Source: Clostridia bacterium
GTDB lineage: Bacteria; Bacillota; Clostridia; Christensenellales; UBA1242
Length of the DNA: 64,000 bases
NCBI GenBank assembly: GCA_017936585.1
Contig: JAGBFI010000038.1
Coordinates: 46,503 to 110,502 of the forward strand
Direction: 5' to 3'
Below are positions 22,401 through 30,703 of this stretch, piece after piece. Position 1 is the first letter of the stretch. The number at the start of each line of letters is the position of its first letter. The notes under the pieces were generated by a model. That model saw only the letters and a program-made list of their open reading frames with translations. It was not told where the DNA came from and did no database searches. The position numbers and the translations under genes were made by a program.

Positions 22401-25400
22401 TTATCCATCAATTTCCCATGCAAGTTTTGGATATGAATTTTGAGCAAAACGCCAAATTTCTTCGTCAAACTGAACGCCTGAATTATAATATTCACCAGCT
22501 TTCAAACTGAAGCAATCTCTCGCCTCCGCCCAAGTGTCAGGCTTTTGCGAAATGAGAGTGGAAGCATTTGTGAAACAATTTTCAATTCTGCCATTTGAGA
22601 CGCCGGCCAGCCCGCCGAAAGAATAATTTCCCAAAACCTCCAAAATTGCATAGCTGTGATTCACGGTTTTTGATGTTTCCGCATTTTCATATGTGCCATA
22701 AAGTCCACCAATCATGCCCTTTCCGGTCATTGTTGAAAGGTCAATCGTGCCATTGAAATAGTTGTTTTCGCTTTTTGCTCTACCATTTCCAACAAGCCCA
22801 CCAACAACAAATTCATCAGCGGTGCCGCTTAAAACAATTCTTGCATTTGTTGCATTTTGTGAAATGTCCAACGATTTATGTGCACCTAAGTTCCCCGCAA
22901 GCCCGCCGGCAACAATCTTTTCCGCACCATTTGATGTGATTGAAATTTTTGCTCTGTTGTCATTTTTGACAATTGAACCTTGCCCTTTCCCACCAGATAT
23001 TTGTCCGGCAATTCCGCCAATTTTCAAATTTTCACCACTTGTGATGATGTTTATTTCAAGCAAGTTGATGCAATTTTCAATCTTGCCGCCAGCATTTTCA
23101 GCCACAACTCCGCCCAATGTCAGGCTTTGACTCGTTTCAAATGAAAGTTTACCTCTGACAATGCAGCCGACAATTTCTCCTGAATTATATCTTGCAATCG
23201 CACCAAACGCTGTCAAATTTGAATAGTTTTTTTCTTGCAAAACAAACTCAACATCTTTGATACTTCCGCAGTTCTTTGCAAAAAATCCGCCACTCTGAGC
23301 ATTGATATTTGTCAGCCTATACCCCTTGCCATCAAGTTGTCCCGTGAAAAGACTCCCTTGCCAAGACTCTCCTTCCATATCGATGTCATTTTCCAGCACA
23401 AAGTTTGAATATTTTGCATTTGAAAGCAGAACTTTCAATTCGTTTGAATTTTTGATTCCCATTTCCTGAGGAATAAGATAGAACGACAGCACAAAAAGCA
23501 CCAAGTTGAGCATGCCTACCCCAAATAATGTTAAAAAAACTGACTTCCAACCTTTGGAGATTTTGCTTTTTTGAATGAAATACAGCGTGAAATTGAGCAT
23601 TCCAATCACAACTGAATAAATCAATGTAACAATCAAAAACTCTTGACTGAAATACATATACACTTCTTTTGGCATAAACAATGATATTGTCAAAAGCAAC
23701 GTTGTGAAAAGAAGTGGGAAAAATTGCAGGAAAATCGTCAAAAATCTCTTCAAAAACTTGTCTTTTTTGATTGTTTTCACTTTGTTGTCATATTCAGGCT
23801 GAGTTTCCTCGCTTGTCTTGTAAACACCGGACAAGTCTTTGCCAACTCCCGTCACAGCAATTGCATTGACGGATGTGTCAAGCGACAAATCCAAAGCGGA
23901 CAATCTGACTTTTGCTTTTTCAGAAATCTCGCAGAAACTTTCAAACTTTTTGATTTTTTCAAGAGATTTAATGTATTTCTTGAAAGGCTCAAGTTGAAGT
24001 CGATAATAATCCAGGCCCTTCTTTGCTTCAAGCCCGTATTCCTTTTCAATTTCAAGCAGAATTTGCTCGTTTCGCAAAACAAAATCTTTTAATTTTGATT
24101 TCAAAGAAATCAAGTCAAGCAAATCATCCACAAACTCTTTGCGCTCGCCCTTAAACAGATTTGATTTGCTGACAATTCCGGCATAAACTTCATCCTCTTC
24201 GTCAGACGAAAGTTCAAGCAAAGTTTCCCACTCTGGCATTTGCGTCACTTTCACCCTAGACATGATGAGGTCATTGTCTGTTTTGCAATGTGCCTTGATT
24301 TTGATCAGCTGCCAATAAAGCGGCCCATTTGTCTTGTCTTTTGAGATAGCAATCGCGAGATATTTTTCCGCTTGCTTGAAAAAGCCCATATCCTGAAAGC
24401 TGTCTGCAATTTGTTTTGCAATCGCCGAAAGTTCTGGCTCTAAGTTGACATAAGAAAGATAAAAATCTAACTGCTCTTCAGCTTTGTTTAAATCCAAAAA
24501 TGCAACCGGCAAAATCAAAGAAGCAACTGTGGAAATGTATTGTGCGCGCGAACTTTCGTTGAGATATTTGAAAACCTCTTGCAGTTCCTCGTGATTTCTG
24601 TATGTCAATTTGTCTTCATCTGTTTTGAAATTTCGAAGAAGAAGGGTAATGTTACTTTGATTATGCCCCGGGTCAAGCTCCAAAATTTTCTTGTAATATT
24701 GCTTATCATCACTGCGCTGAGCCAGTGCAAAATAGAAAGAAATGAATCTGTCAACATCGTTTTTGTCAAAACACTTCAAAACTTTTTCGATCAAAGAATC
24801 GTCCAGAGTTTCAATCGCTTTGCTTTCTGCTTTTGAAACAAAATTTTCACGATTTGGAGAATTGTAGCCCGCCAAATACACCAAAAATGTTTCATAATAT
24901 TCTTCACTATCAAGACCTTCAACCAGTTTTTCCCATCTGTCAACAAAGTCCTCAGCGAAACTCTTTGATGCATATTTCAAAATCATGTCGATCTTTTCTT
25001 TGTCCTTGAAATTGGAAATATTTTGGAAAAATTCTTCTTGCGTTTTGATTTGCTTGTCTGCCAACATCTCAGCAAACAAAATCTCTGCATTGTATGGGTC
25101 TTTTTCAAGCAAATCTTTTGTGAATTCCTTTGCTGAAGCAAAATCACCATTTTTCAATGTCAAATAAATCCACTTGATTTTTGTTTCATCATTCAGATTG
25201 ATGTTGTCAACATCATAGTTTCCAAGGTCAGCCGGAACAACTGTGTCCAAGTCGACATAGGTTCGCTTGTCCGGTTCCACACTTTCCACTTTGACAGTGG
25301 AAATTTTCGCTTCTTGTTTGGTTGTTTTTTGCTTTTGATTTTCAACCATAACTTCCAAATCTTGCAAAAATGAAATTGTCCCCGCCTCAATAACGCTTTT

Positions 25401-26183
25401 GCAAGACGCCAAATCCTTTGGCAAATCCGAAAGTTGCACTTCGTCAAGAATAACAATTGCACTTGTCTTGGCTTTTTTCTTTTGCTTTATGAAATAAAAA
25501 TATCTGTCCAACAAAAATCTATATTCGTTGAACCCTTCCTTACTTGATGCCACAAGCAGCAAAACCTTGCTTGTCTGCAATGCTTGAAAAACATCCTCTT
25601 CCTTCACGCGTGGAGTTTGATGGTGGAGCGAAAACACAGAATTTTTTTCTGAAAGCTTTGCATAGATTTCGTCCACTTTTTCTTTTGCTTTTTCATATGC
25701 AACCGCACACAAAATGATGTCATATGTGCTTTTTGATGCTTTATCCTCGTGTAATTTTTTGATTTTTTCAACACGCTTTGCAATGTCTGTGTACGTTTTT
25801 GCAACCTCTGGAGGGGCAAACTTTGTTGCTTTTTGAAAGTCCACATCCTCACTCAAATTGCAAATTTGGTCAGAGAAAAAATTAGGCTTGTTCCTTGAGC
25901 CTCTTTTGTTGTTATAAAGAACAATTCTGTTCTTCGCAAGAGCCTTGCCAAAATGTGCTTCAAACGATTTTGGATAGAGTGCAATGATTTTGTCAAACTC
26001 CTCAACGGCATCATCAAACTGCATTTGACGCAAAATTTCATATGCACCAACCGTGAGGACTTCTTCCTCTTTTGAGGCGTGTTCGTCCACATACAAAGTC
26101 CCGCAGAACTTGCATTTAACCATGTTCTGCCCGACAACTTTATATTCTCGTCCTCCACAATTTTTACAAACACGCTCTCTCAT
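22401..26183 (-). CDS. 1,260-aa multidomain membrane protein with N-terminal Zn-ribbon, TPR-like repeats, a TIR-like alpha/beta module, three TM helices and an extracytoplasmic GLUG-repeat domain
   Basis: The N-terminus has CKNCGG...CKFCG. Long helical repeat regions follow. The TM cluster is LTIFLQFFPLLFTTLLLTISLF, FLIVTLIYSVVIGMLNFTLYFI and VFLTLFGVGMLNLVLFVLSFYLI. The C-terminal repeats include LGGVVAENAGGKIENC, IGGIAGQISGG, VAGGLAGNLG, VVGGLVGNG, MIGGLYGTYEN and FGGLAGVSNGRIENC. It has an AAGGAAA RBS and starts 8 nt after the ATPase gene. Confidence 0.8.
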   Translation of the reverse strand: MRERVCKNCGGREYKVVGQNMVKCKFCGTLYVDEHASKEEEVLTVGAYEILRQMQFDDAVEEFDKIIALYPKSFEAHFGKALAKNRIVLYNNKRGSRNKPNFFSDQICNLSEDVDFQKATKFAPPEVAKTYTDIAKRVEKIKKLHEDKASKSTYDIILCAVAYEKAKEKVDEIYAKLSEKNSVFSLHHQTPRVKEEDVFQALQTSKVLLLVASSKEGFNEYRFLLDRYFYFIKQKKKAKTSAIVILDEVQLSDLPKDLASCKSVIEAGTISFLQDLEVMVENQKQKTTKQEAKISTVKVESVEPDKRTYVDLDTVVPADLGNYDVDNINLNDETKIKWIYLTLKNGDFASAKEFTKDLLEKDPYNAEILFAEMLADKQIKTQEEFFQNISNFKDKEKIDMILKYASKSFAEDFVDRWEKLVEGLDSEEYYETFLVYLAGYNSPNRENFVSKAESKAIETLDDSLIEKVLKCFDKNDVDRFISFYFALAQRSDDKQYYKKILELDPGHNQSNITLLLRNFKTDEDKLTYRNHEELQEVFKYLNESSRAQYISTVASLILPVAFLDLNKAEEQLDFYLSYVNLEPELSAIAKQIADSFQDMGFFKQAEKYLAIAISKDKTNGPLYWQLIKIKAHCKTDNDLIMSRVKVTQMPEWETLLELSSDEEDEVYAGIVSKSNLFKGERKEFVDDLLDLISLKSKLKDFVLRNEQILLEIEKEYGLEAKKGLDYYRLQLEPFKKYIKSLEKIKKFESFCEISEKAKVRLSALDLSLDTSVNAIAVTGVGKDLSGVYKTSEETQPEYDNKVKTIKKDKFLKRFLTIFLQFFPLLFTTLLLTISLFMPKEVYMYFSQEFLIVTLIYSVVIGMLNFTLYFIQKSKISKGWKSVFLTLFGVGMLNLVLFVLSFYLIPQEMGIKNSNELKVLLSNAKYSNFVLENDIDMEGESWQGSLFTGQLDGKGYRLTNINAQSGGFFAKNCGSIKDVEFVLQEKNYSNLTAFGAIARYNSGEIVGCIVRGKLSFETSQSLTLGGVVAENAGGKIENCINLLEINIITSGENLKIGGIAGQISGGKGQGSIVKNDNRAKISITSNGAEKIVAGGLAGNLGAHKSLDISQNATNARIVLSGTADEFVVGGLVGNGRAKSENNYFNGTIDLSTMTGKGMIGGLYGTYENAETSKTVNHSYAILEVLGNYSFGGLAGVSNGRIENCFTNASTLISQKPDTWAEARDCFSLKAGEYYNSGVQFDEEIWRFAQNSYPKLAWEIDG

Positions 26184-26191
26184 AGTTTTCC

Positions 26192-27340
26192 TTAATTTTG
26201 ATTTGTTGTCTTTTTGTTTTTCTTTATGTAACTGCTAATTTCAGTATTGTAGGCTTCAAAACTTGAAATCTCTTTTTCTGTCACACTTGGTGGCATGCTG
26301 TCTAAAACTCTGTCAAAATCCTCATTCGTCACAAGCACAACTTTGTCCGTTGCAATTGCCTGAAGAAGAGGCTCATCCTTGGCACGGTCACAAAGTTCTT
26401 CAATGTCCGCACCGCTGTAGTTCTCCGTTTGAGCCACAATTCTGTCAATATTGAAGTCTTTGGCAACTGGCACTCTCTTCATATTTTTCTCAAGCATATA
26501 TTTTCTTGCCGCAGCATCAGGCAAAGGAAGATAAATCTTCTGAGAAAATCTACCCGAACGCATTGCCGCACTGTCAATATCCCAAGGTCTGTTTGTTGCC
26601 CCAAGCAAAAGCAGATTTGGATTTCTTCCGGCAAAGCCGTCAATTTGTTGCAAAAATTCGTTCACACGCTTGTCATTGTGAGTGTCAAGCCCACGTTTGC
26701 CAATCAAACTGTCCATTTCGTCAATGAAGATGATGGCACGGTCTTGCTTGTTTGCTTCTTCAAAAAGTGAGTTGATATTTTTCTCGCTGTCGCCCACCCA
26801 TTTGCTGACAATATCTGAGCCTTTGACTGCATAAAACTTTGCGCCGACCTCATTTGCAATTGCCTTTGCAATCATGGTCTTTCCTGTTCCTGGAGGGCCA
26901 TACAAAAGCACGCCGCCACCAGTTTTTTTGCCATACATTTTGTATTTTTCAGGATATTTCACAGGGTTTATCATCTTGATTGTGATGGCTTTTTTCACGT
27001 CTTCAAGTCCCGCAACATCATTGAATGTGATTTTTGGGATTTCCGCTGTTTGCCATTTTTTGAGAGTCTCGTCCTTTTCCTCTTCCACATCGCTCTTTTT
27101 GTCGATTTTTGCAGGCTTCTTGCCCAAGTTGTCCGCAATGTCAACAAGTTTGCGCGCCCTTTCCATGCGAACTTCTTTCAACTTCCCTTTGCTGCGAACA
27201 GCAATCTGCATCATTGTTTCACTTGCAAGCAAGAAATTACGCTTTGCAAGCGCCAAATTTCCTCTCTCTTTCGCTTCTTTACCTTTTTTCATGTAAAGTT
27301 CAAAAGTGTCCGACAAAATTGTGATGTTGTTTTCTGACAT
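26192..27340 (-). CDS. MIT-domain AAA+ ATPase, Vps4/CdvC-like
   Basis: The ATG at 27338-27340 has a GGAGAGGG RBS. The N-terminal roughly 75 aa (ELYMKKGKEAKERGNLALAKRNFLLASETMMQIAVRSKGKLKEVRMERARKLVDIADNL) follow the MIT three-helix pattern. A single AAA cassette follows, with Walker A GPPGTGKT, SKWVGDSEK, Walker B IIFIDEMD and SRH ATNRPWDIDSAAMRSGRF. The C-terminal segment DFDRVLDSMPPSVTEKEISSFEAY resembles the Vps4 C-terminal helix region. Confidence 0.75.
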   Translation of the reverse strand: MSENNITILSDTFELYMKKGKEAKERGNLALAKRNFLLASETMMQIAVRSKGKLKEVRMERARKLVDIADNLGKKPAKIDKKSDVEEEKDETLKKWQTAEIPKITFNDVAGLEDVKKAITIKMINPVKYPEKYKMYGKKTGGGVLLYGPPGTGKTMIAKAIANEVGAKFYAVKGSDIVSKWVGDSEKNINSLFEEANKQDRAIIFIDEMDSLIGKRGLDTHNDKRVNEFLQQIDGFAGRNPNLLLLGATNRPWDIDSAAMRSGRFSQKIYLPLPDAAARKYMLEKNMKRVPVAKDFNIDRIVAQTENYSGADIEELCDRAKDEPLLQAIATDKVVLVTNEDFDRVLDSMPPSVTEKEISSFEAYNTEISSYIKKNKKTTNQN

Positions 27341-27382: not shown

Positions 27383-27982
27383 TTATTTGTCTGCGTCTGC
27401 TTCGATTTTTTTTCTGAGTTCTTCCATTTCTTTTTCGATGCTTTCTGTTGAAAGTTCGTCTTGCGTTGCTTGCTCCATGATGAATTTTTCAAGTTCTTCA
27501 TCGCTCATTTGCTTGCCACTCTTGTCTTTGCCAGCGTTATAGAATGTTTCTTGGCTCATTTCCATGAAGTTGTCCATTTGGTCTGTTTGAGTTTCAACTG
27601 CCACCATAGCTTCCTCAAACTGAGCTTGAATTTTTGCAAATTCTTTTGCATCAGCAAGCTTTGTCATTTCCTTTGAAATGTCACTCATTCCACGCAAGAA
27701 CTCGCTTGTCATCATTGTCACATCTTTCATTTGAGCAGTGATTTCAAAGTTGAGAAGCATCTCCTGTGCACGCTTTTGTTGTTGAACAGTCATCTTATAT
27801 CCAGAAAGAGCCAAGTTGAATTGTGTGTCCAAATCCTTAAGTTTCGCTCTTTTTGCGGCTTCAATAAACACCTTTTTTTGTTCTTCCAAGCGGTTGATTT
27901 GCTTGTTCATTGTGTTGATTGTTCTTTTAATCAACATCTTCTTCTCGATTTCTTTTTGTTGTTTAGATTTAAAAAGTCCCAT
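27383..27982 (-). CDS. ESCRT-III (Snf7/CHMP-family)-like protein, paralogue B (199 aa)
   Basis: It starts MGLFKSKQQKEIEKK, followed by a basic helical hairpin and then an acidic C-terminal half. The segment MTSEFLRGMSDISKEMTKLADAKEFAKIQAQFEEAMVAVETQTDQMDNFME parallels the alpha3-alpha5 region of CHMP2/3-type proteins. The C-terminal amphipathic tail is SIEKEMEELRKKIEADADK. It has a GGAGGA RBS. Confidence 0.65.
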   Translation of the reverse strand: MGLFKSKQQKEIEKKMLIKRTINTMNKQINRLEEQKKVFIEAAKRAKLKDLDTQFNLALSGYKMTVQQQKRAQEMLLNFEITAQMKDVTMMTSEFLRGMSDISKEMTKLADAKEFAKIQAQFEEAMVAVETQTDQMDNFMEMSQETFYNAGKDKSGKQMSDEELEKFIMEQATQDELSTESIEKEMEELRKKIEADADK

Positions 27983-27986
27983 TTTA

Positions 27987-28598
27987 TCATTCCTCCATCT
28001 TCATTTTTTTCTTTTTGATTGGTTCTTCTTTTTCAACATCTTGCATCAATTCGTTTTCTTCTGCAAGTTGACTCTCTTTTTCAAACATTGTCAAAATTTC
28101 TTCCTCATTCTTGCCAATTCCATAAATTGGTTGATTGAGGTCATATGCCGATTGCACCTCTGTGAAAAGTTCGTCCGCGTTAGTGAGCACATCTTCTGAA
28201 GCCACCCTTGTTACCAAAGCTTTGTTCAAGAATTTTGCCAAGCCACGCTGGTCTTGCAAAAGCTCGCTGAGCGGAACCTTTGTTTGAGTTTTATAGAACG
28301 CGTTGCTGTCATATGCTTCTTTCAACTTGTTCATAAGCCTGATGTTGTAAAGCAAATACATCCCTCTTTCCATGCAAGTCTGTTTTTCTTCGTGTAGATG
28401 AGAAATCTTCTTTGCATAGAAAAGTTGAAGTTCTTTGTTCTTCTCTTTCTTCCCCTTTTCCATGAGCGCATCAATTTCTTTCAGCTTTTGATAGACTTCC
28501 GCTTCCACCGTACGCTCTTGTCTTTCAAGTTCGCAAATGGAATTGACCAAATCCTCTCTGTTTATTTTCTTAAATTTGTTACGTCTAAATGGCCACAT
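27987..28598 (-). CDS. ESCRT-III (Snf7/CHMP-family)-like protein, paralogue A (203 aa)
   Basis: It has an AAGGAG RBS. The basic N-terminus is MWPFRRNKFKKINRED. A long coiled-coil hairpin follows (ELERQERTVEAEVYQKLKEIDALMEKGKKEKNKELQLFYAKKISHLHEEK...), then an acidic C-terminal region ending EEPIKKKKMKMEE. The overall layout is Snf7/CHMP4/CdvB-like. Confidence 0.55.
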   Translation of the reverse strand: MWPFRRNKFKKINREDLVNSICELERQERTVEAEVYQKLKEIDALMEKGKKEKNKELQLFYAKKISHLHEEKQTCMERGMYLLYNIRLMNKLKEAYDSNAFYKTQTKVPLSELLQDQRGLAKFLNKALVTRVASEDVLTNADELFTEVQSAYDLNQPIYGIGKNEEEILTMFEKESQLAEENELMQDVEKEEPIKKKKMKMEE

Positions 28599-28609: not shown

Positions 28610-28969
28610 TTAATAATTATCCCCTTCGTTTATTTTGTAAATTCGCTCAAGCAAATTGTCATATTTTTTTCTCAGTGTTTCATCCGCAAGTTCCAGTGCT
28701 TTCTGACATTCAGGCAAATATATCGCGCTTTTATATTTCACCGGATTTGAAAACAACTCGTCCTCATTTGACATCTCAAATTTGACAAGCATCTGCCCCC
28801 AATAGGCATCCGCACATTTTTCGTCATATTGAGCCGCAAGCAGAAAGTTCAGTTTTGCTTGCTCAAAAAAGCCGTCCGTCAAATTCAGATATCCAAGCTT
28901 GAGTTCTTTCAAAACCCTTTCCGCCACCTCCGCAGGCAGCCCTTGCGATGTTTGATAAGTTCTTTTCAT
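28610..28969 (-). CDS. Small (119 aa) helical TPR-like protein
   Basis: The start overlaps the upstream stop (TGATG). The sequence GFFEQAKLNFLLAAQYDEKCADAYWGQMLVK is TPR-hairpin-like. It resembles residues about 55-85 of the 1,260-aa protein in the same operon. Confidence 0.5.
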   Translation of the reverse strand: MKRTYQTSQGLPAEVAERVLKELKLGYLNLTDGFFEQAKLNFLLAAQYDEKCADAYWGQMLVKFEMSNEDELFSNPVKYKSAIYLPECQKALELADETLRKKYDNLLERIYKINEGDNY

Positions 28970-29376
28970 CAGGCTTGTTCTTCCTTCTTTCTTTGAACTA
29001 TGTATGCTTCCACCTCTTCAAGCATCCTAAAGCACGTCTCTTGAGTGTTGTCTTTTGCCACAACAATCTTCAAATCGTCCAATTTGTTGGCAATTTTGCT
29101 GTCCACCAAAAGGGCTTTTTGATTTGTTGTTGGATTGAAAAATCTGATGTTGTCCTTCACTTCCACAAGTCTACGGCAAAGTTCATCATTGCCGTTGGCA
29201 TAAACGATGACGCTTTCAACATTTGCAACCATGTTTTCGATTGACTTTTTGTTTTTAAGAACTCCCTTTGATCCCCCATTCGCCTCGTCTCGTGGTTTTT
29301 TGATGTATTCTCTGCAAATGTAGTACACTGCAAATCCCACCACTGCCAAAATGATAATCACATATAAAGCAACCAT
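28969..29376 (-). CDS. Small (135 aa) N-terminally anchored membrane protein
   Basis: It has a strong AAGGAGGA RBS. The N-terminal TM segment is MVALYVIIILAVVGFAVYYI, followed by a basic stretch and a soluble domain of about 100 aa. I recognise no family. Confidence 0.6.
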   Translation of the reverse strand: MVALYVIIILAVVGFAVYYICREYIKKPRDEANGGSKGVLKNKKSIENMVANVESVIVYANGNDELCRRLVEVKDNIRFFNPTTNQKALLVDSKIANKLDDLKIVVAKDNTQETCFRMLEEVEAYIVQRKKEEQA

Positions 29377-29385
29377 AATTCCTCC

Positions 29386-30213
29386 TTAAAGTTTTTCGCC
29401 ACATTTGCTGCAGAACAGCGCATCATCCGCATTTTTCGCAAAGCACTTTGGGCATTTGTTTCCAATTTTCACTTTCATTCCGCACTTGTTGCAAAACTTT
29501 GCATCTTCTGGCAAGCTTGCGCCGCATCCTCTGCACACAAAGCTTTGAGATTTTTTCATGTTTTTGTATGCATTGTTAAGTTTCGCATAGTCCTGCTCAT
29601 CAATGATAATGTTTGCAATGTTGAAAGAAAAAACCGCAATTCCATATTCACTTTGAAGCTTGTGACTGAGTGCCGTCAGCACTTTTTGTGACATCTCTTT
29701 TTTGCAAACTGCAATTTGATTGAAAAGAACTCTATTTTCTTTGATATAGTCCACAATGACCGTTTCCATCACGGACACGACATTCGACTGCAACCTTTCT
29801 TGCAATGCGTCCGCAGTGAGGTCTTCTGATGCGCCGACAAGATAAAGAAAACTCTTTCTTGGGTCGCCAATCTGCACCTCGAAATCACCGCTGAAGTCGC
29901 AATAATAGTTTTCTTGAAGTTGCTCATCATACATCAAAAGCATTTGAGGCGTTCCCCAAAGCATTTTGAGTTTTGCCGTCTTGGACATGAAAAGAACTTC
30001 CAAAATTGCGTCAACCTCTTCTTTTGTATCCACAAATGCGGAAAGTTGAAATTTTCCTGACGACAAAGTTTGAAGCATCTGCCCATCCTTGATCACAATG
30101 GCGTTGTGAGTTTCAGGCACGATGAGTGTCTTTTTGAAATCGGCTGACTCAAGTTTCACTCTTGAGAATAAGTTGTCATTGTTTCCGCTAAATTTAATTA
30201 TATTTTGTTCCAT
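29386..30213 (-). CDS. SPFH/band-7-like protein with a C-terminal double zinc ribbon (YdjI / COG4260-like)
   Basis: The ATG at 30211-30213 has a GGAG RBS. The body resembles the YdjI / 'virion core protein'-type SPFH family (IVPETHNAIVIKDGQMLQTLSSGKF..., ...EYGIAVFSFNIANIIIDE). The C-terminus is FVCRGCGASLPEDAKFCNKCGMKVKIGNKCPKCFAKNADDALFCSKCG, which is four CxxC pairs forming two zinc ribbons. Confidence 0.65.
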   Translation of the reverse strand: MEQNIIKFSGNNDNLFSRVKLESADFKKTLIVPETHNAIVIKDGQMLQTLSSGKFQLSAFVDTKEEVDAILEVLFMSKTAKLKMLWGTPQMLLMYDEQLQENYYCDFSGDFEVQIGDPRKSFLYLVGASEDLTADALQERLQSNVVSVMETVIVDYIKENRVLFNQIAVCKKEMSQKVLTALSHKLQSEYGIAVFSFNIANIIIDEQDYAKLNNAYKNMKKSQSFVCRGCGASLPEDAKFCNKCGMKVKIGNKCPKCFAKNADDALFCSKCGEKL

Positions 30214-30255
30214 CAAAACTCCATGGGAAGTCAAGATATAAATTCCCTTAGTTGA

Positions 30256-30284
30256 ATTTTAACAAAATAAATGTCAAAAGTCAA
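30256..30284 (-). promoter_or_regulatory. Putative sigma-A promoter of the ESCRT-like operon
   Basis: The minus-strand read is TTGACT (30284-30279), a 17-nt spacer, then TAAAAT (30261-30256). It lies about 45 nt upstream of the first ATG of the operon. Confidence 0.5.
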
Positions 30285-30484: not shown

Positions 30485-30703
30485 ATGAACTTTTTTGGAG
30501 GCTCAAATTGTGGAGATGTAGGTAGAGATTGTGGTGGCTGTGGAAACGATTGCTGCTCACTCATCTTCTTACTTTTGCTCTTACAAAACTGTGGCTGCGG
30601 TTGCGGAATGAAAGGCGGAGAAATCTGCATCGATTGCGGAACACTTCTTTTCCTCATTCTTCTTTCAAACTGCGGATGTGGATGTGGCTGCAACTGCAAG
30701 TAA
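30485..30703 (+). CDS. 72-aa Cys/Gly-rich small hydrophobic peptide with an internal duplication
   Basis: A strong AAGGAGG RBS lies 5 nt before the ATG, and a strong terminator follows 45 nt after the stop. The product is MNFFGGSNCGDVGRDCGGCGNDCCSLIFLLLLLQNCGCGCGMKGGEICIDCGTLLFLILLSNCGCGCGCNCK. Confidence 0.7.
   Translation: MNFFGGSNCGDVGRDCGGCGNDCCSLIFLLLLLQNCGCGCGMKGGEICIDCGTLLFLILLSNCGCGCGCNCK

What the first reader, a model, noticed from the sequence alone, without database searches (positions are those of the whole stretch)
29386..30213. A YdjI-like SPFH and zinc-ribbon protein leads the operon, mixing a PspA-type accessory with Snf7-type filament genes
In Bacillus subtilis the ESCRT-III-superfamily gene pspA sits in the pspA-ydjGHI operon. 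The SPFH-like YdjI has been reported to help tether PspA to the membrane. Here a protein of the same type occupies the first position of an operon whose filament subunits look Snf7-like rather than PspA-like. It has an SPFH-like body plus FVCRGCG...FCNKCG and KCPKCF...FCSKCG double zinc ribbons. It is followed by a small membrane anchor, analogous to YdjG/YdjH. This suggests that an SPFH scaffold plus a small membrane anchor is an ancient, exchangeable recruitment module for ESCRT-III-superfamily polymers.
Basis: partly seen in the sequence, partly recalled or inferred. Interest (0 to 1): 0.6.

Follow-up and report, generated by a model that had tools for sequence, protein, structure and literature searches.

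The report
SPFH zinc-ribbon gene heading ESCRT-like operon
The first gene of a conserved gut-Clostridia operon encodes a soluble flotillin-type (SPFH) protein with two zinc ribbons that is inherited together with a small membrane-targeted partner and an ESCRT-III-like filament gene, so it most likely brings that membrane-remodelling machine to the membrane, much as YdjI does for PspA in Bacillus.

Summary
Window 29386-30213 (-) encodes a 275-aa protein with no transmembrane segment. It matches Pfam Band_7_1 (51.8 bits, cut-off 24) and DZR, has eight conserved Cys, and its AF2 model matches HflK/C, stomatin and flotillin. It heads a tightly packed seven-gene operon, kept in order in 37 of 37 related loci with room.

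YdjI-like is right for family and architecture, but orthology is not shown:
- The ML tree and profile scores place it beside SPFH genes followed by a 4-TM partner, away from the pspA-linked clade. An AU test cannot exclude the alternative (p 0.145).
- The 135-aa neighbour is unrelated to YdjG or YdjH. Its cytoplasmic domain is homologous to the C-terminus of those 4-TM partners (hhalign 96.6%).

In 22 of 23 wider metagenomic loci, SPFH and the small partner are followed at once by an ESCRT-III-like gene. Most add a Vps4-like ATPase, TIR proteins and a protease. A minimal four-gene form lacks the ATPase.

Only 6 of about 59 Band_7_1 genes sampled in the phylum lie beside pspA. The ancient-link idea is already published (Makarova 2024). 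The scan has noted this operon in at least 24 other genomes.

Verdict: a new variant of a known kind, with moderate interest.

The parts
30256..30284 (-). Promoter-like site, TTGACT-17-TAAAAT with a TG extension, upstream of the SPFH gene
   Evidence: Consensus scan, 10 of 12 matches. This is a consensus match only, and no transcript data could be obtained.
29386..30213 (-). SPFH-double zinc ribbon gene, 275 aa. Residues 1-221 are the SPFH body (nt 30213-29551). Residues 226-275 are two CxxC-x(8-10)-CxxC ribbons (nt 29538-29389).
   Evidence: Pfam Band_7_1 51.8 bits and DZR 38.2 bits. AF2 pLDDT 82 with Foldseek hits to HflK/C, stomatin and flotillin. No TM segment. 173 homologous clusters.
28969..29376 (-). 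Small partner, 135 aa: an N-terminal TM helix plus a roughly 100-aa cytoplasmic helical domain with a conserved (Y/F)xNP...D.KI..KLDDLK motif
   Evidence: TM at residues 1-19. Found in exactly the same genomes as the SPFH gene. Homologous to the C-terminal domain of the 4-TM partners of the sister SPFH clade: HMM E 2e-8 and hhalign probability 96.6%, E 5e-10.
28610..28969 (-). 119-aa helical protein, found only in this operon type and overlapping the previous gene by 1 nt
   Evidence: Present in the 37 complete window-type loci and in L051, at 44-76% identity. Absent from the divergent variants. No Pfam match.
27987..28598 (-). ESCRT-III-like protein 1, 203 aa. In relatives this is the gene that directly follows the small partner.
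   Evidence: AF2 gives a long helical hairpin plus three shorter helices, pLDDT 71.6. The best Foldseek hits are archaeal CdvB2 filaments, probability 1.00, E 0.04, TM 0.48-0.51. No Pfam or PDB sequence match. Directly follows the small partner in 22 of 23 metagenomic loci with room.
27383..27982 (-). ESCRT-III-like protein 2, 199 aa, the most conserved gene of the operon
   Evidence: 78-95% identity across the window-type loci. Co-occurs with the SPFH gene in the same 10 of 41 genomes. I did not test its fold.
26192..27340 (-). Vps4/CdvC-like single-cassette AAA ATPase
   Evidence: NCBIfam CdvC model aligned end to end, 207.7 bits, below its cut-off. Pfam AAA 144.6 bits, with a weak Vps4_C match. 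Vps4_C is above cut-off in relatives L054 and L144.
22401..26183 (-). 1260-aa membrane protein with an N-terminal zinc ribbon, TPR repeats and three predicted TM segments. It is a relative of ZnR-TPR-TIR membrane proteins.
   Evidence: TPR hits only, with no TIR hit in this copy. TM segments at 813-897. Clusters with the TIR_2-positive proteins of L053 and L056. Six of seven such proteins tested in related loci carry TIR_2 above cut-off.

Best explanation
The gene encodes a soluble SPFH protein of the Band_7_1/COG4260 family with a C-terminal double zinc ribbon. This is the architecture of B. subtilis YdjI/SamI, but in a separate branch of the family.

Proposed mechanism:
1. The protein works as one half of a two-gene module. 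The other half is the small protein encoded immediately downstream.
2. The small protein reaches the membrane through its N-terminus, here a TM helix.
3. Its conserved cytoplasmic helical domain holds the SPFH protein at the inner face of the membrane.
4. The membrane-bound SPFH assembly then acts as the platform that positions or nucleates the ESCRT-III-like polymer (the 203-aa and 199-aa proteins).
5. The Vps4-like ATPase turns that polymer over.
6. The large zinc-ribbon/TPR membrane protein, which carries a TIR domain in relatives, is the sensor or effector arm.

Shown: family membership, fold, absence of a TM segment, operon structure, co-inheritance, and homology of the partner.

Inferred from gene context and from the YdjI-PspA precedent: the physical contacts, SPFH oligomerisation and recruitment of the filament.
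For: Identity of the protein:
- Pfam Band_7_1 and DZR both score above cut-off.
- AF2 and Foldseek give an SPFH fold.
- There is no TM segment.

Operon:
- The gaps between genes run from -1 to 42 nt, and each gene has a ribosome-binding site.
- All seven genes are in the same order in 37 of 37 related loci with enough sequence.

Co-inheritance:
- The SPFH gene, the small partner and the 199-aa gene are found in exactly the same 10 of 41 related genomes.
- Across metagenomic loci with GC content from 0.26 to 0.60, the SPFH gene and small partner are adjacent in every locus with room but one. In L145 the SPFH gene lies after the ATPase gene.
- The ESCRT-III-like gene directly follows the small partner in 22 of 23 of those loci.
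- A minimal four-gene form consists of SPFH, small partner, ESCRT-III-like gene and a ZnR-3TM protein. Its genes overlap by 1 nt, and it has no ATPase, TIR or protease gene.

Partner:
- Its cytoplasmic domain is homologous to the C-terminus of the 4-TM proteins that follow the nearest other SPFH clade (HMM E 2e-8; hhalign 96.6%).
- Partners without a TM helix carry basic-hydrophobic N-termini such as MCFKKKK or MGLF..KKK, like those of the two filament proteins.

Precedent:
- YdjI is soluble, needs YdjG and YdjH to reach the membrane, binds PspA and is required for PspA foci (Scholz 2021, PMC8581546).
- This lineage has no PspA. None of 41 related genomes gave a match above cut-off.
Against: - No interaction, localisation or expression data exist.
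- Two loci carry the SPFH-partner pair without any ESCRT-III-like gene. L120 has the pair alone, and L053 has the pair with a TIR protein and a protease. The pair therefore has a function that does not need the filament.
- The sister-clade locus L056 pairs SPFH with a TIR protein.
- The protein lacks the long coiled coil that builds the cage wall in HflK/C, stomatin and flotillin. After the SPFH body there is only a 16-residue helix, so a cage-type platform is doubtful.
- In B. subtilis, SamI also restrains SamH independently of PspA (Baur 2026, PMC13713150).
- The ESCRT-III assignment of the 203-aa protein rests on fold hits with weak E-values, the best being 0.04, and on no sequence match.
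Confidence: 0.5

Rival explanations
1. The SPFH protein and its partner are the sensing or regulatory switch of an immune-type conflict system. They hold the zinc-ribbon membrane proteins in check until the membrane is disturbed, for example by phage. Those proteins are TIR enzymes and trypsin-like proteases in relatives, and the 1260-aa protein here. On this reading the ESCRT-III-like and Vps4-like genes are one of several output arms, not the thing being recruited.
For: - ZnR-TPR-TIR proteins with TIR_2 above cut-off and ZnR-trypsin proteases sit in most related loci.
- L053 has SPFH, partner, a TIR protein and a protease with no filament gene.
- The sister-clade locus L056 has SPFH, a TM partner and a ZnR-TPR-TIR protein.
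- In G013 the operon abuts a BrxL-like gene.
- The distribution within the genus is patchy, 10 of 25 genomes.
- The SPFH gene (53-72% identity) and the large membrane protein (41-52%) diverge much faster than the filament genes (76-95%).
- SamI restrains SamH in B. subtilis independently of PspA (PMC13713150).
Against: - None of the operon's proteins except the AAA ATPase matches PADLOC. The ATPase gives generic AAA hits to IetA.
- No relatives were found on viral contigs.
- The window's own large protein has no detectable TIR domain.
- The minimal four-gene form keeps the filament gene but has no TIR, protease or ATPase.
- No defence phenotype is known.
Confidence: 0.3
2. The protein is a protease- or client-gating SPFH assembly of the HflK/C-FtsH or stomatin-NfeD type. 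It would enclose and regulate a membrane client, with the filament genes only co-transcribed.
For: - The best structural matches are HflK/C, stomatin, QmcA-YbbJ and prohibitin.
- ZnR-trypsin-like proteases are common in related loci.
Against: - The protein has no membrane anchor and no long coiled coil.
- The window operon has no protease gene.
- The protease is missing from the minimal form and the window form, while the filament gene is retained.
Confidence: 0.1
3. The protein is a general membrane-microdomain (flotillin-like) housekeeping protein whose position in the operon has no functional meaning.
For: - It is the only Band_7_1 gene in this small genome.
- Deleting YdjI alters membrane fluidity in B. 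subtilis (PMC8581546).
Against: - It strictly co-occurs with the operon and is absent from 15 of 25 genomes of the genus.
- Adjacency is kept down to about 23% identity.
- Gene starts are overlapped or closely spaced.
Confidence: 0.05

Closest known systems
B. subtilis YdjI/SamI in the pspA-ydjGHI (pspA-samGHI) operon (Scholz 2021, PMC8581546; Baur 2026, PMC13713150)
   Same: - Both are Pfam Band_7_1 SPFH domains with a C-terminal zinc ribbon.
- Both are soluble and encoded with membrane proteins and an ESCRT-III-superfamily gene.
- The canonical order PspA > YdjG-like > TPM (YdjH-like) > SPFH was recovered in three genomes of this phylum for comparison.
   Different: - Identity to the pspA-linked proteins is only about 21%, BLASTP E 2.5e-5 to 8.5e-9.
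- The ML tree places the window protein in another clade, although the AU test gives p 0.145.
- The gene is first in its operon, not last.
- Its partner is a different family, not YdjG or YdjH.
- The filament genes are not PspA, and a Vps4-like ATPase is present.
- There is no low-complexity linker.
SPFH + coiled-coil + zinc-ribbon protein of archaeal 'Meth_adaptin' ESCRT loci (Makarova et al. 2024, PMC10936438)
   Same: - Both are SPFH proteins with a zinc ribbon encoded beside Vps4 and ESCRT-III genes.
- That paper already draws the YdjI-PspA parallel and proposes an early SPFH/ESCRT-III link.
   Different: - This one is bacterial.
- I recognised no adaptin-appendage, GOLD or ProX genes nearby.
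- The window protein has no coiled-coil insert, although relatives carry a conserved helical insert.
- The sequence relationship could not be tested, because no archaeal sequence was reachable.
Cage-forming SPFH proteins: HflK/C, stomatin, flotillin, prohibitin and QmcA
   Same: The SPFH fold matches over about 200 aligned columns, with Foldseek probability 1.00 and E 4e-8 to 1e-4.
   Different: - There is no N-terminal membrane anchor.
- There is no long CC1/CC2 wall helix.
- A double zinc ribbon occupies the C-terminus instead.
- Sequence identity is 9-14%.
Bacterial Vps4-like ATPase next to a 'TPR + 6TM' protein, and band-7/PspA associations (Ravi et al. 2024, PMC11237479)
   Same: That paper describes the YdjI-type band-7 + ZnR protein coupled to PspA. 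It also describes archaeal-type Vps4-like ATPases in bacteria beside TPR membrane proteins.
   Different: - That paper states that snf7 is displaced in those bacterial Vps4 loci.
- Here the ATPase sits with two ESCRT-III-like genes and an SPFH-ZnR gene in one operon.

Membership tests
Pfam Band_7_1 (PF13421) / COG4260, the YdjI/SamI family | Match to PF13421 above the gathering threshold | tested here: met
   51.8 bits against a cut-off of 24, E 1.1e-13, covering profile positions 69-198 of 211. Clade member L053 scores 62.6 bits over positions 8-204. A relative found with the window profile is named 'virion core protein (lumpy skin disease virus) family', an annotation I recall as typical of COG4260 (from memory, not checked here).
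Pfam Band_7_1 (PF13421) / COG4260, the YdjI/SamI family | SPFH fold | tested here: met
   AF2 pLDDT 82.2. The Foldseek top 26 PDB hits are all SPFH proteins, with E down to 4e-8.
Pfam Band_7_1 (PF13421) / COG4260, the YdjI/SamI family | C-terminal zinc ribbon(s) and no membrane anchor | tested here: met
   DZR 38.2 bits and Zn_Ribbon_1 in two stretches. Eight conserved Cys. No hydrophobic segment.
YdjI/SamI orthologous group (pspA-linked clade) | Groups with the pspA-adjacent Band_7_1 proteins in a tree | tested here: inconclusive
   The ML tree puts the window clade (SH-aLRT 99) with the 4-TM-partner clade (95), and puts the pspA-linked proteins in their own clade (99) elsewhere. The AU test of a forced joint clade gives delta lnL 14.2, p 0.145, which does not reject it. 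The window profile scores the 4-TM-type proteins at 1e-30 to 1e-36 and the pspA-linked ones at 8e-8 to 8e-17.
YdjI/SamI orthologous group (pspA-linked clade) | Operon partners pspA, ydjG (zinc ribbons + TM) and ydjH (TPM domain) | tested here: not met
   No PF04012 match in the genome or in 41 relatives. The operon proteins have no TPM or YdjG-type match. The 135-aa partner belongs to another family. A YdjG-ribbon HMM matches the N-terminus of the 1260-aa protein only marginally, E 0.0026.
Cage-forming SPFH proteins (HflK/C, stomatin, flotillin) | N-terminal membrane anchor and long coiled-coil wall helices | tested here: not met
   No TM segment. After the SPFH body there is only the helix at residues 206-221, followed by the zinc ribbons.
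Archaeal Meth_adaptin-type ESCRT-associated SPFH (Makarova 2024) | SPFH + zinc ribbon encoded beside Vps4 and ESCRT-III genes | tested here: met
   Operon content.
Archaeal Meth_adaptin-type ESCRT-associated SPFH (Makarova 2024) | Sequence relationship to the archaeal proteins, and adaptin, GOLD or ProX neighbours | not testable with these tools
ESCRT-III superfamily (for the neighbouring 203-aa protein the module is proposed to serve) | Helical-hairpin core fold; sequence match to Snf7 or PspA | tested here: inconclusive
   Fold: the best PDB hits are CdvB2 filaments, probability 1.00, TM about 0.5 and E 0.04, with CdvB, Asgard ESCRT-IIIB, CHMP2A/3, Ist1 and Vipp1 lower in the list. Sequence: no Pfam Snf7 or PspA match (1 of 21 members at E 0.35) and no PDB match.

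The most novel reading that the evidence does not exclude
The SPFH-zinc-ribbon protein and its small partner are the membrane-damage or infection sensor of a bacterial immune system. On this reading they license a CdvB/Snf7-like ESCRT-III polymer and a Vps4-like ATPase, which work together with TIR and protease effectors. That would be a bacterial counterpart of ESCRT-mediated membrane repair or remodelling in eukaryotic cell-autonomous immunity. The SPFH coupling would have been reached independently of the YdjI-PspA system.
Probability: 0.2. Interest if true: 0.85.

Novelty: new variant of a known kind. Interest (0 to 1): 0.55.

Why it matters
SPFH proteins and ESCRT-III-superfamily polymers are both universal membrane organisers. 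The only experimentally studied link between them in prokaryotes is YdjI-PspA in B. subtilis.

This locus shows a second SPFH-zinc-ribbon lineage, apparently separate from that one. It has its own dedicated partner family and is locked by gene order to CdvB/Snf7-like filament genes, usually with a Vps4-like ATPase. Recent reviews say that pairing is absent from bacteria.

The locus therefore gives a compact and experimentally tractable set of candidates for how an ESCRT-III-type polymer is targeted to a bacterial membrane. The minimal form has only four genes.

The wider family survey also suggests that Band_7_1 proteins typically work with a zinc-ribbon-bearing membrane protein, and that the filament is an optional add-on. 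That reframes how YdjI/SamI itself should be viewed.

Tried and rejected
- PADLOC gave no match for the SPFH protein or the small proteins.
- NCBIfam gave nothing specific for the SPFH protein.
- A PDB sequence search with the SPFH profile found only zinc-ribbon hits.
- PDB and Pfam sequence searches with profiles of the two filament proteins found nothing meaningful.
- The genome-contig scan with a close-relative alignment returned only the same gut-Clostridia clade. It therefore gave synteny but no distant relatives.
- A diverse alignment (A5) was too variable for pattern scans.
- The viral-contig scan found no relatives.
- Cluster look-ups gave almost no organism names, so the 150 representative hits could not be labelled by taxon and archaeal relatives could not be picked out.
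- I considered that the YdjG equivalent here is the N-terminal zinc ribbon of the 1260-aa protein. A YdjG-ribbon HMM hits the TIR proteins of related loci well (i-E 1e-8 to 1e-6) but hits the window's own protein only marginally (E 0.0026). I keep this as a side note.
- I considered the TTG start at 30234 and rejected it on the orthologue alignment.
- The claim that the SPFH protein is clearly not a YdjI orthologue was softened after the AU test.
Full report
**1. What is there**

The minus-strand ORF 29386..30213 starts at an ATG with GGAG 5 nt upstream. A longer TTG start at 30234 exists, but nearly all orthologues begin at the same MEQN.

The 275-aa product has these features:
- Pfam Band_7_1: E 1.1e-13, 51.8 bits against a cut-off of 24, residues 72-207.
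- Pfam DZR: 38.2 bits against a cut-off of 27.3, residues 227-272.
- Zn_Ribbon_1 in two stretches.
- The eight ribbon cysteines are invariant or nearly so in 76 relatives.
- No hydrophobic segment.

An AF2 model built on 76 sequences has mean pLDDT 82.2 and pTM 0.67. It shows a beta-rich N-terminal half, two long helices, a strand, a short helix at residues 206-221, and then the ribbons. Foldseek against the PDB returns only SPFH proteins at the top: HflK/C 9cz2 at E 4e-8, then stomatin, flotillin, QmcA and prohibitin, all with probability 1.00 over about 200 columns.

**2. The operon**

Seven co-directional genes follow a TTGACT-17-TAAAAT promoter-like site. The gaps between them are 9, -1, 11, 4, 42 and 8 nt, and each gene has its own ribosome-binding site. 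In order they are:
1. The SPFH-ZnR gene.
2. A 135-aa protein with one N-terminal TM helix.
3. A 119-aa helical protein.
4. A 203-aa helical protein.
5. A 199-aa helical protein.
6. An AAA ATPase. It aligns end to end with the NCBIfam CdvC model (207.7 bits, below that model's cut-off).
7. A 1260-aa protein with an N-terminal zinc ribbon, TPR repeats and three TM segments.

For the 203-aa protein I found no Pfam or PDB sequence match, even with a 21-sequence profile. Its AF2 model (pLDDT 71.6) is a long helical hairpin followed by three shorter helices. The best PDB fold hits are archaeal CdvB2 filaments, with probability 1.00, TM 0.48-0.51 and E 0.04. CdvB, Asgard ESCRT-IIIB, CHMP2A/3, Ist1 and Vipp1 come lower in the list.

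This is moderate support for an ESCRT-III fold of the archaeal/eukaryotic type rather than the PspA type. The PspA model finds nothing in this genome and nothing above its cut-off in 41 relatives.

**3. Co-occurrence**

In 41 related genomes, the SPFH gene, the 135-aa gene and the 199-aa gene occur in exactly the same ten. All ten belong to the genus (10 of 25 genomes). None of the three was found as such in 16 genomes of other families of the order.

A scan of species-representative genomes gave 40 loci, all from gut Clostridia MAGs (Caccovivens and unnamed relatives). All 37 loci with enough sequence keep all seven genes in the same order.

| Gene | Identity to the window (%) |
|---|---|
| 199-aa | 78-95 |
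| 203-aa | 76-87 |
| ATPase | 77-86 |
| 135-aa | 59-87 |
| SPFH | 53-72 |
| 119-aa | 44-76 |
| 1260-aa | 41-52 |

The SPFH protein therefore evolves faster than the filament proteins and the ATPase.

**4. Where it sits in the SPFH-ZnR family**

The family is very large. A profile search gave 1,313 representative clusters at E<=1e-10, nearly all with the same SPFH-plus-ribbons layout.

I sampled 401 genomes of the phylum. About 59 genes are full-length Band_7_1, and 100 genomes have PspA. Only six Band_7_1 genes lie within 3 kb of pspA.

I fetched 60 neighbourhoods and clustered the neighbours. The gene next to the SPFH gene is most often a membrane protein that also carries a zinc ribbon:

| Neighbour | Loci |
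|---|---|
| YdjG-like (two ribbons + TM) | 25 |
| TPM-domain, YdjH-like (usually alongside the YdjG-like protein) | 15 |
| Tim44-like membrane protein with a ribbon | 6 |
| 4-TM protein, followed by small TM + ribbon proteins | 4 |

The Bacillus order PspA > YdjG-like > TPM > SPFH is present in three genomes of the sample.

In a quick ML tree, the window protein and its variants form a clade (SH-aLRT 99). That clade joins the 4-TM-partner clade (95). The pspA-linked proteins form their own clade (99) inside the other main branch.

Other measures agree:
- The window profile scores the 4-TM-type proteins at 1e-30 to 1e-36 and the pspA-linked ones at 8e-8 to 8e-17.
- BLASTP identity to the pspA-linked proteins is about 21%.

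However, an AU test does not reject a tree that forces the window clade and the pspA-linked clade together (delta lnL 14.2, p 0.145, with long branches). The tree alone is therefore not decisive.

**5. The small partner**

The 135-aa protein has no Pfam match. It is unrelated to YdjG or YdjH.

An HMM of its family hits the C-terminal cytoplasmic domain of the 4-TM proteins that follow the sister-clade SPFH genes (E 2e-8 and 3e-5). Profile-profile comparison gives 96.6% probability, E 5e-10, over 125 columns, with a shared (Y/F)-x-(N/D)-P ... D-x-K-I ... L-D-D-L-K block. This is independent support for the sister relationship. It also shows that SPFH plus this partner is an inherited two-gene unit.

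The membrane-targeting end of the partner varies:
- Four TM helices in the sister clade.
- One TM helix in the window type and in some metagenomic forms.
- No TM helix but a basic-hydrophobic N-terminus (MCFKKKK, MGLF..KKK, MWFFKRK) in others. These resemble the N-termini of the two filament proteins.

**6. The wider system**

Divergent relatives in the same genus (G013 and G022, SPFH 36% and 23% identical) keep the order SPFH > partner > two filament genes > ATPase. They lack the 119-aa gene. In G013 the operon ends with a ZnR-trypsin protease followed by a BrxL-like gene.

A metagenome scan gave 26 further loci with GC content from 0.26 to 0.60. The census shows:
- The partner directly follows the SPFH gene in every locus with room, except that in L145 the SPFH gene has moved to the end.
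- The 203-aa-type gene directly follows the partner in 22 of 23 loci with room.
- Twelve loci also show the ATPase.
- Most loci carry one or two ZnR-TPR membrane proteins. Six of seven tested have TIR_2 above cut-off.
- Many loci carry a ZnR-trypsin protease.

A minimal form occurs in five loci (three distinct). It has only SPFH, the partner, one filament gene and a 175-aa ZnR-3TM protein. All four genes overlap by 1 nt and sit among housekeeping genes.

There are two exceptions. L120 has the pair alone. L053 has the pair with a TIR protein and a protease but no filament gene.

**7. A side observation on zinc ribbons**

The SPFH proteins carry ribbons of the form C..CG-x(8)-KFC..CG. Their membrane neighbours carry C..CG-x(12-14)-C.(Y/F)CG(S/T).

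An HMM trained only on YdjG-like ribbons behaves as follows:
- It hits the N-terminal ribbons of the TIR proteins in related loci (i-E 2e-8, median 7e-7).
- It hits the small TM + ribbon proteins.
- It barely hits the SPFH ribbons (i-E at best 0.008).
- Against the window's own 1260-aa protein the match is marginal (E 0.0026).

This suggests that a ribbon-bearing membrane protein is the recurrent third member of these modules. It is not shown for this window.

**8. How it most likely works**

Shown:
- A soluble SPFH-ZnR protein.
- A dedicated partner that is co-inherited and translationally close.
- A near-invariant following filament gene.

Inferred from this and from the YdjI precedent:
- The partner holds the SPFH protein at the membrane.
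- The SPFH assembly positions or nucleates the ESCRT-III-like polymer.
- The Vps4-like ATPase recycles the polymer.

The precedent is that YdjI is soluble, needs YdjG/H, binds PspA and is required for PspA foci (PMC8581546). I put this explanation at about 0.5.

The main rival, at about 0.3, is that the pair is the sensor or regulator of an immune-type system with TIR and protease outputs. Its support:
- The TIR and protease content of relatives.
- The two filament-less loci.
- The patchy distribution.
- The finding that SamI restrains SamH independently of PspA (PMC13713150).

The two readings are not exclusive.

Against a classical SPFH cage, the protein has no anchor and no long coiled coil. 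Relatives do carry a conserved helical insert (...DYEKYLEVCKxxGW...) that this lineage has lost.

**9. Comparison with what is known, and novelty**

Makarova et al. 2024 already reported an SPFH + coiled-coil + zinc-ribbon protein in archaeal Meth_adaptin ESCRT loci. They drew the YdjI-PspA parallel and suggested an early link. Ravi et al. 2024 described the band-7 + ZnR/PspA coupling and bacterial Vps4-like ATPases without snf7. Both that mBio paper and a 2025 review state that Vps4 with ESCRT-III is not found in bacteria.

Three things are new relative to those papers:
- A bacterial SPFH-ZnR lineage with its own partner family, locked to CdvB/Snf7-like genes.
- A minimal ATPase-less version of the system.
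- The finding that, in this phylum sample, few Band_7_1 genes lie beside an ESCRT-III-superfamily gene.

I could not compare with the archaeal proteins.

The scan has already noted this operon in at least 24 other genomes. One earlier follow-up on the same SPFH gene type reached a similar verdict, 'partly supported'. A later check recorded there cautions that few of the neighbouring ATPases match Pfam MIT. I did not test that domain.

**10. Verdict**

The finding is a new variant of a known kind, with interest 0.55.

Noticed in passing
window 30485-30703 (+): A 72-aa Cys/Gly-rich peptide gene lies divergently upstream of the operon. It has an AAGGAGG ribosome-binding site and two hydrophobic stretches, each followed by CGCGCG-type motifs. 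tblastn finds it within about 0.2-4 kb upstream of the SPFH gene in 34 of 40 related loci.
   Followed up: partly
L124:9971-12415, and also L125, L126, L130 and L131: A minimal four-gene relative of the operon: SPFH-ZnR, small partner, one ESCRT-III-like gene and a 175-aa ZnR + 3TM protein. All four overlap by 1 nt. There is no ATPase, TIR or protease gene, and the cluster sits among housekeeping genes.
   Followed up: partly
L054:4240-5572 (G013:C27): In a same-genus relative the operon ends with a ZnR-trypsin-like protease. A BrxL-like gene follows directly (BrxL_N 90.3 bits), which suggests a defence-island setting.
   Followed up: no
G371:C5, G435:C4, G275:C2, G416:C299 and G149:C1: In one family of the phylum sample (f52), a different SPFH gene lies about 4-5 kb from pspA in five genomes. 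It is a weak, partial Band_7_1 match and is probably a classical Band_7 protein. This would be a further recurrent SPFH-PspA linkage.
   Followed up: no
L066-L071 and L110: Band_7_1-ZnR genes are followed by Ser-rich membrane proteins with a Tim44-like domain (PF04280, 80 bits) and a C-terminal zinc ribbon. As far as I know this partner type has not been described.
   Followed up: no
window 27383-28598, and small partners in L054, L120, L123-L125 and L142-L145: The two filament proteins and the small partners without a TM helix share short basic-hydrophobic N-termini (MGLFKSK, MWPFRRNKFKK, MCFKKKK). These may be membrane-insertion motifs like helix H0 of ESCRT-III proteins.
   Followed up: no
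41 related genomes (G000-G040): No PspA_IM30 match above cut-off was found in any of the 41 genomes of this genus and order sample. By contrast, 100 of 401 genomes across the phylum have one.
   Followed up: partly
L053, L054, L124 and many representative hits (alignment A5): Many clade members carry a conserved helical insert (...ERLxDKEFEREx..LExxDYEKYLEVCKxxGW...) between the SPFH body and the ribbons. The window lineage and the L133 type have lost it.
   Followed up: no
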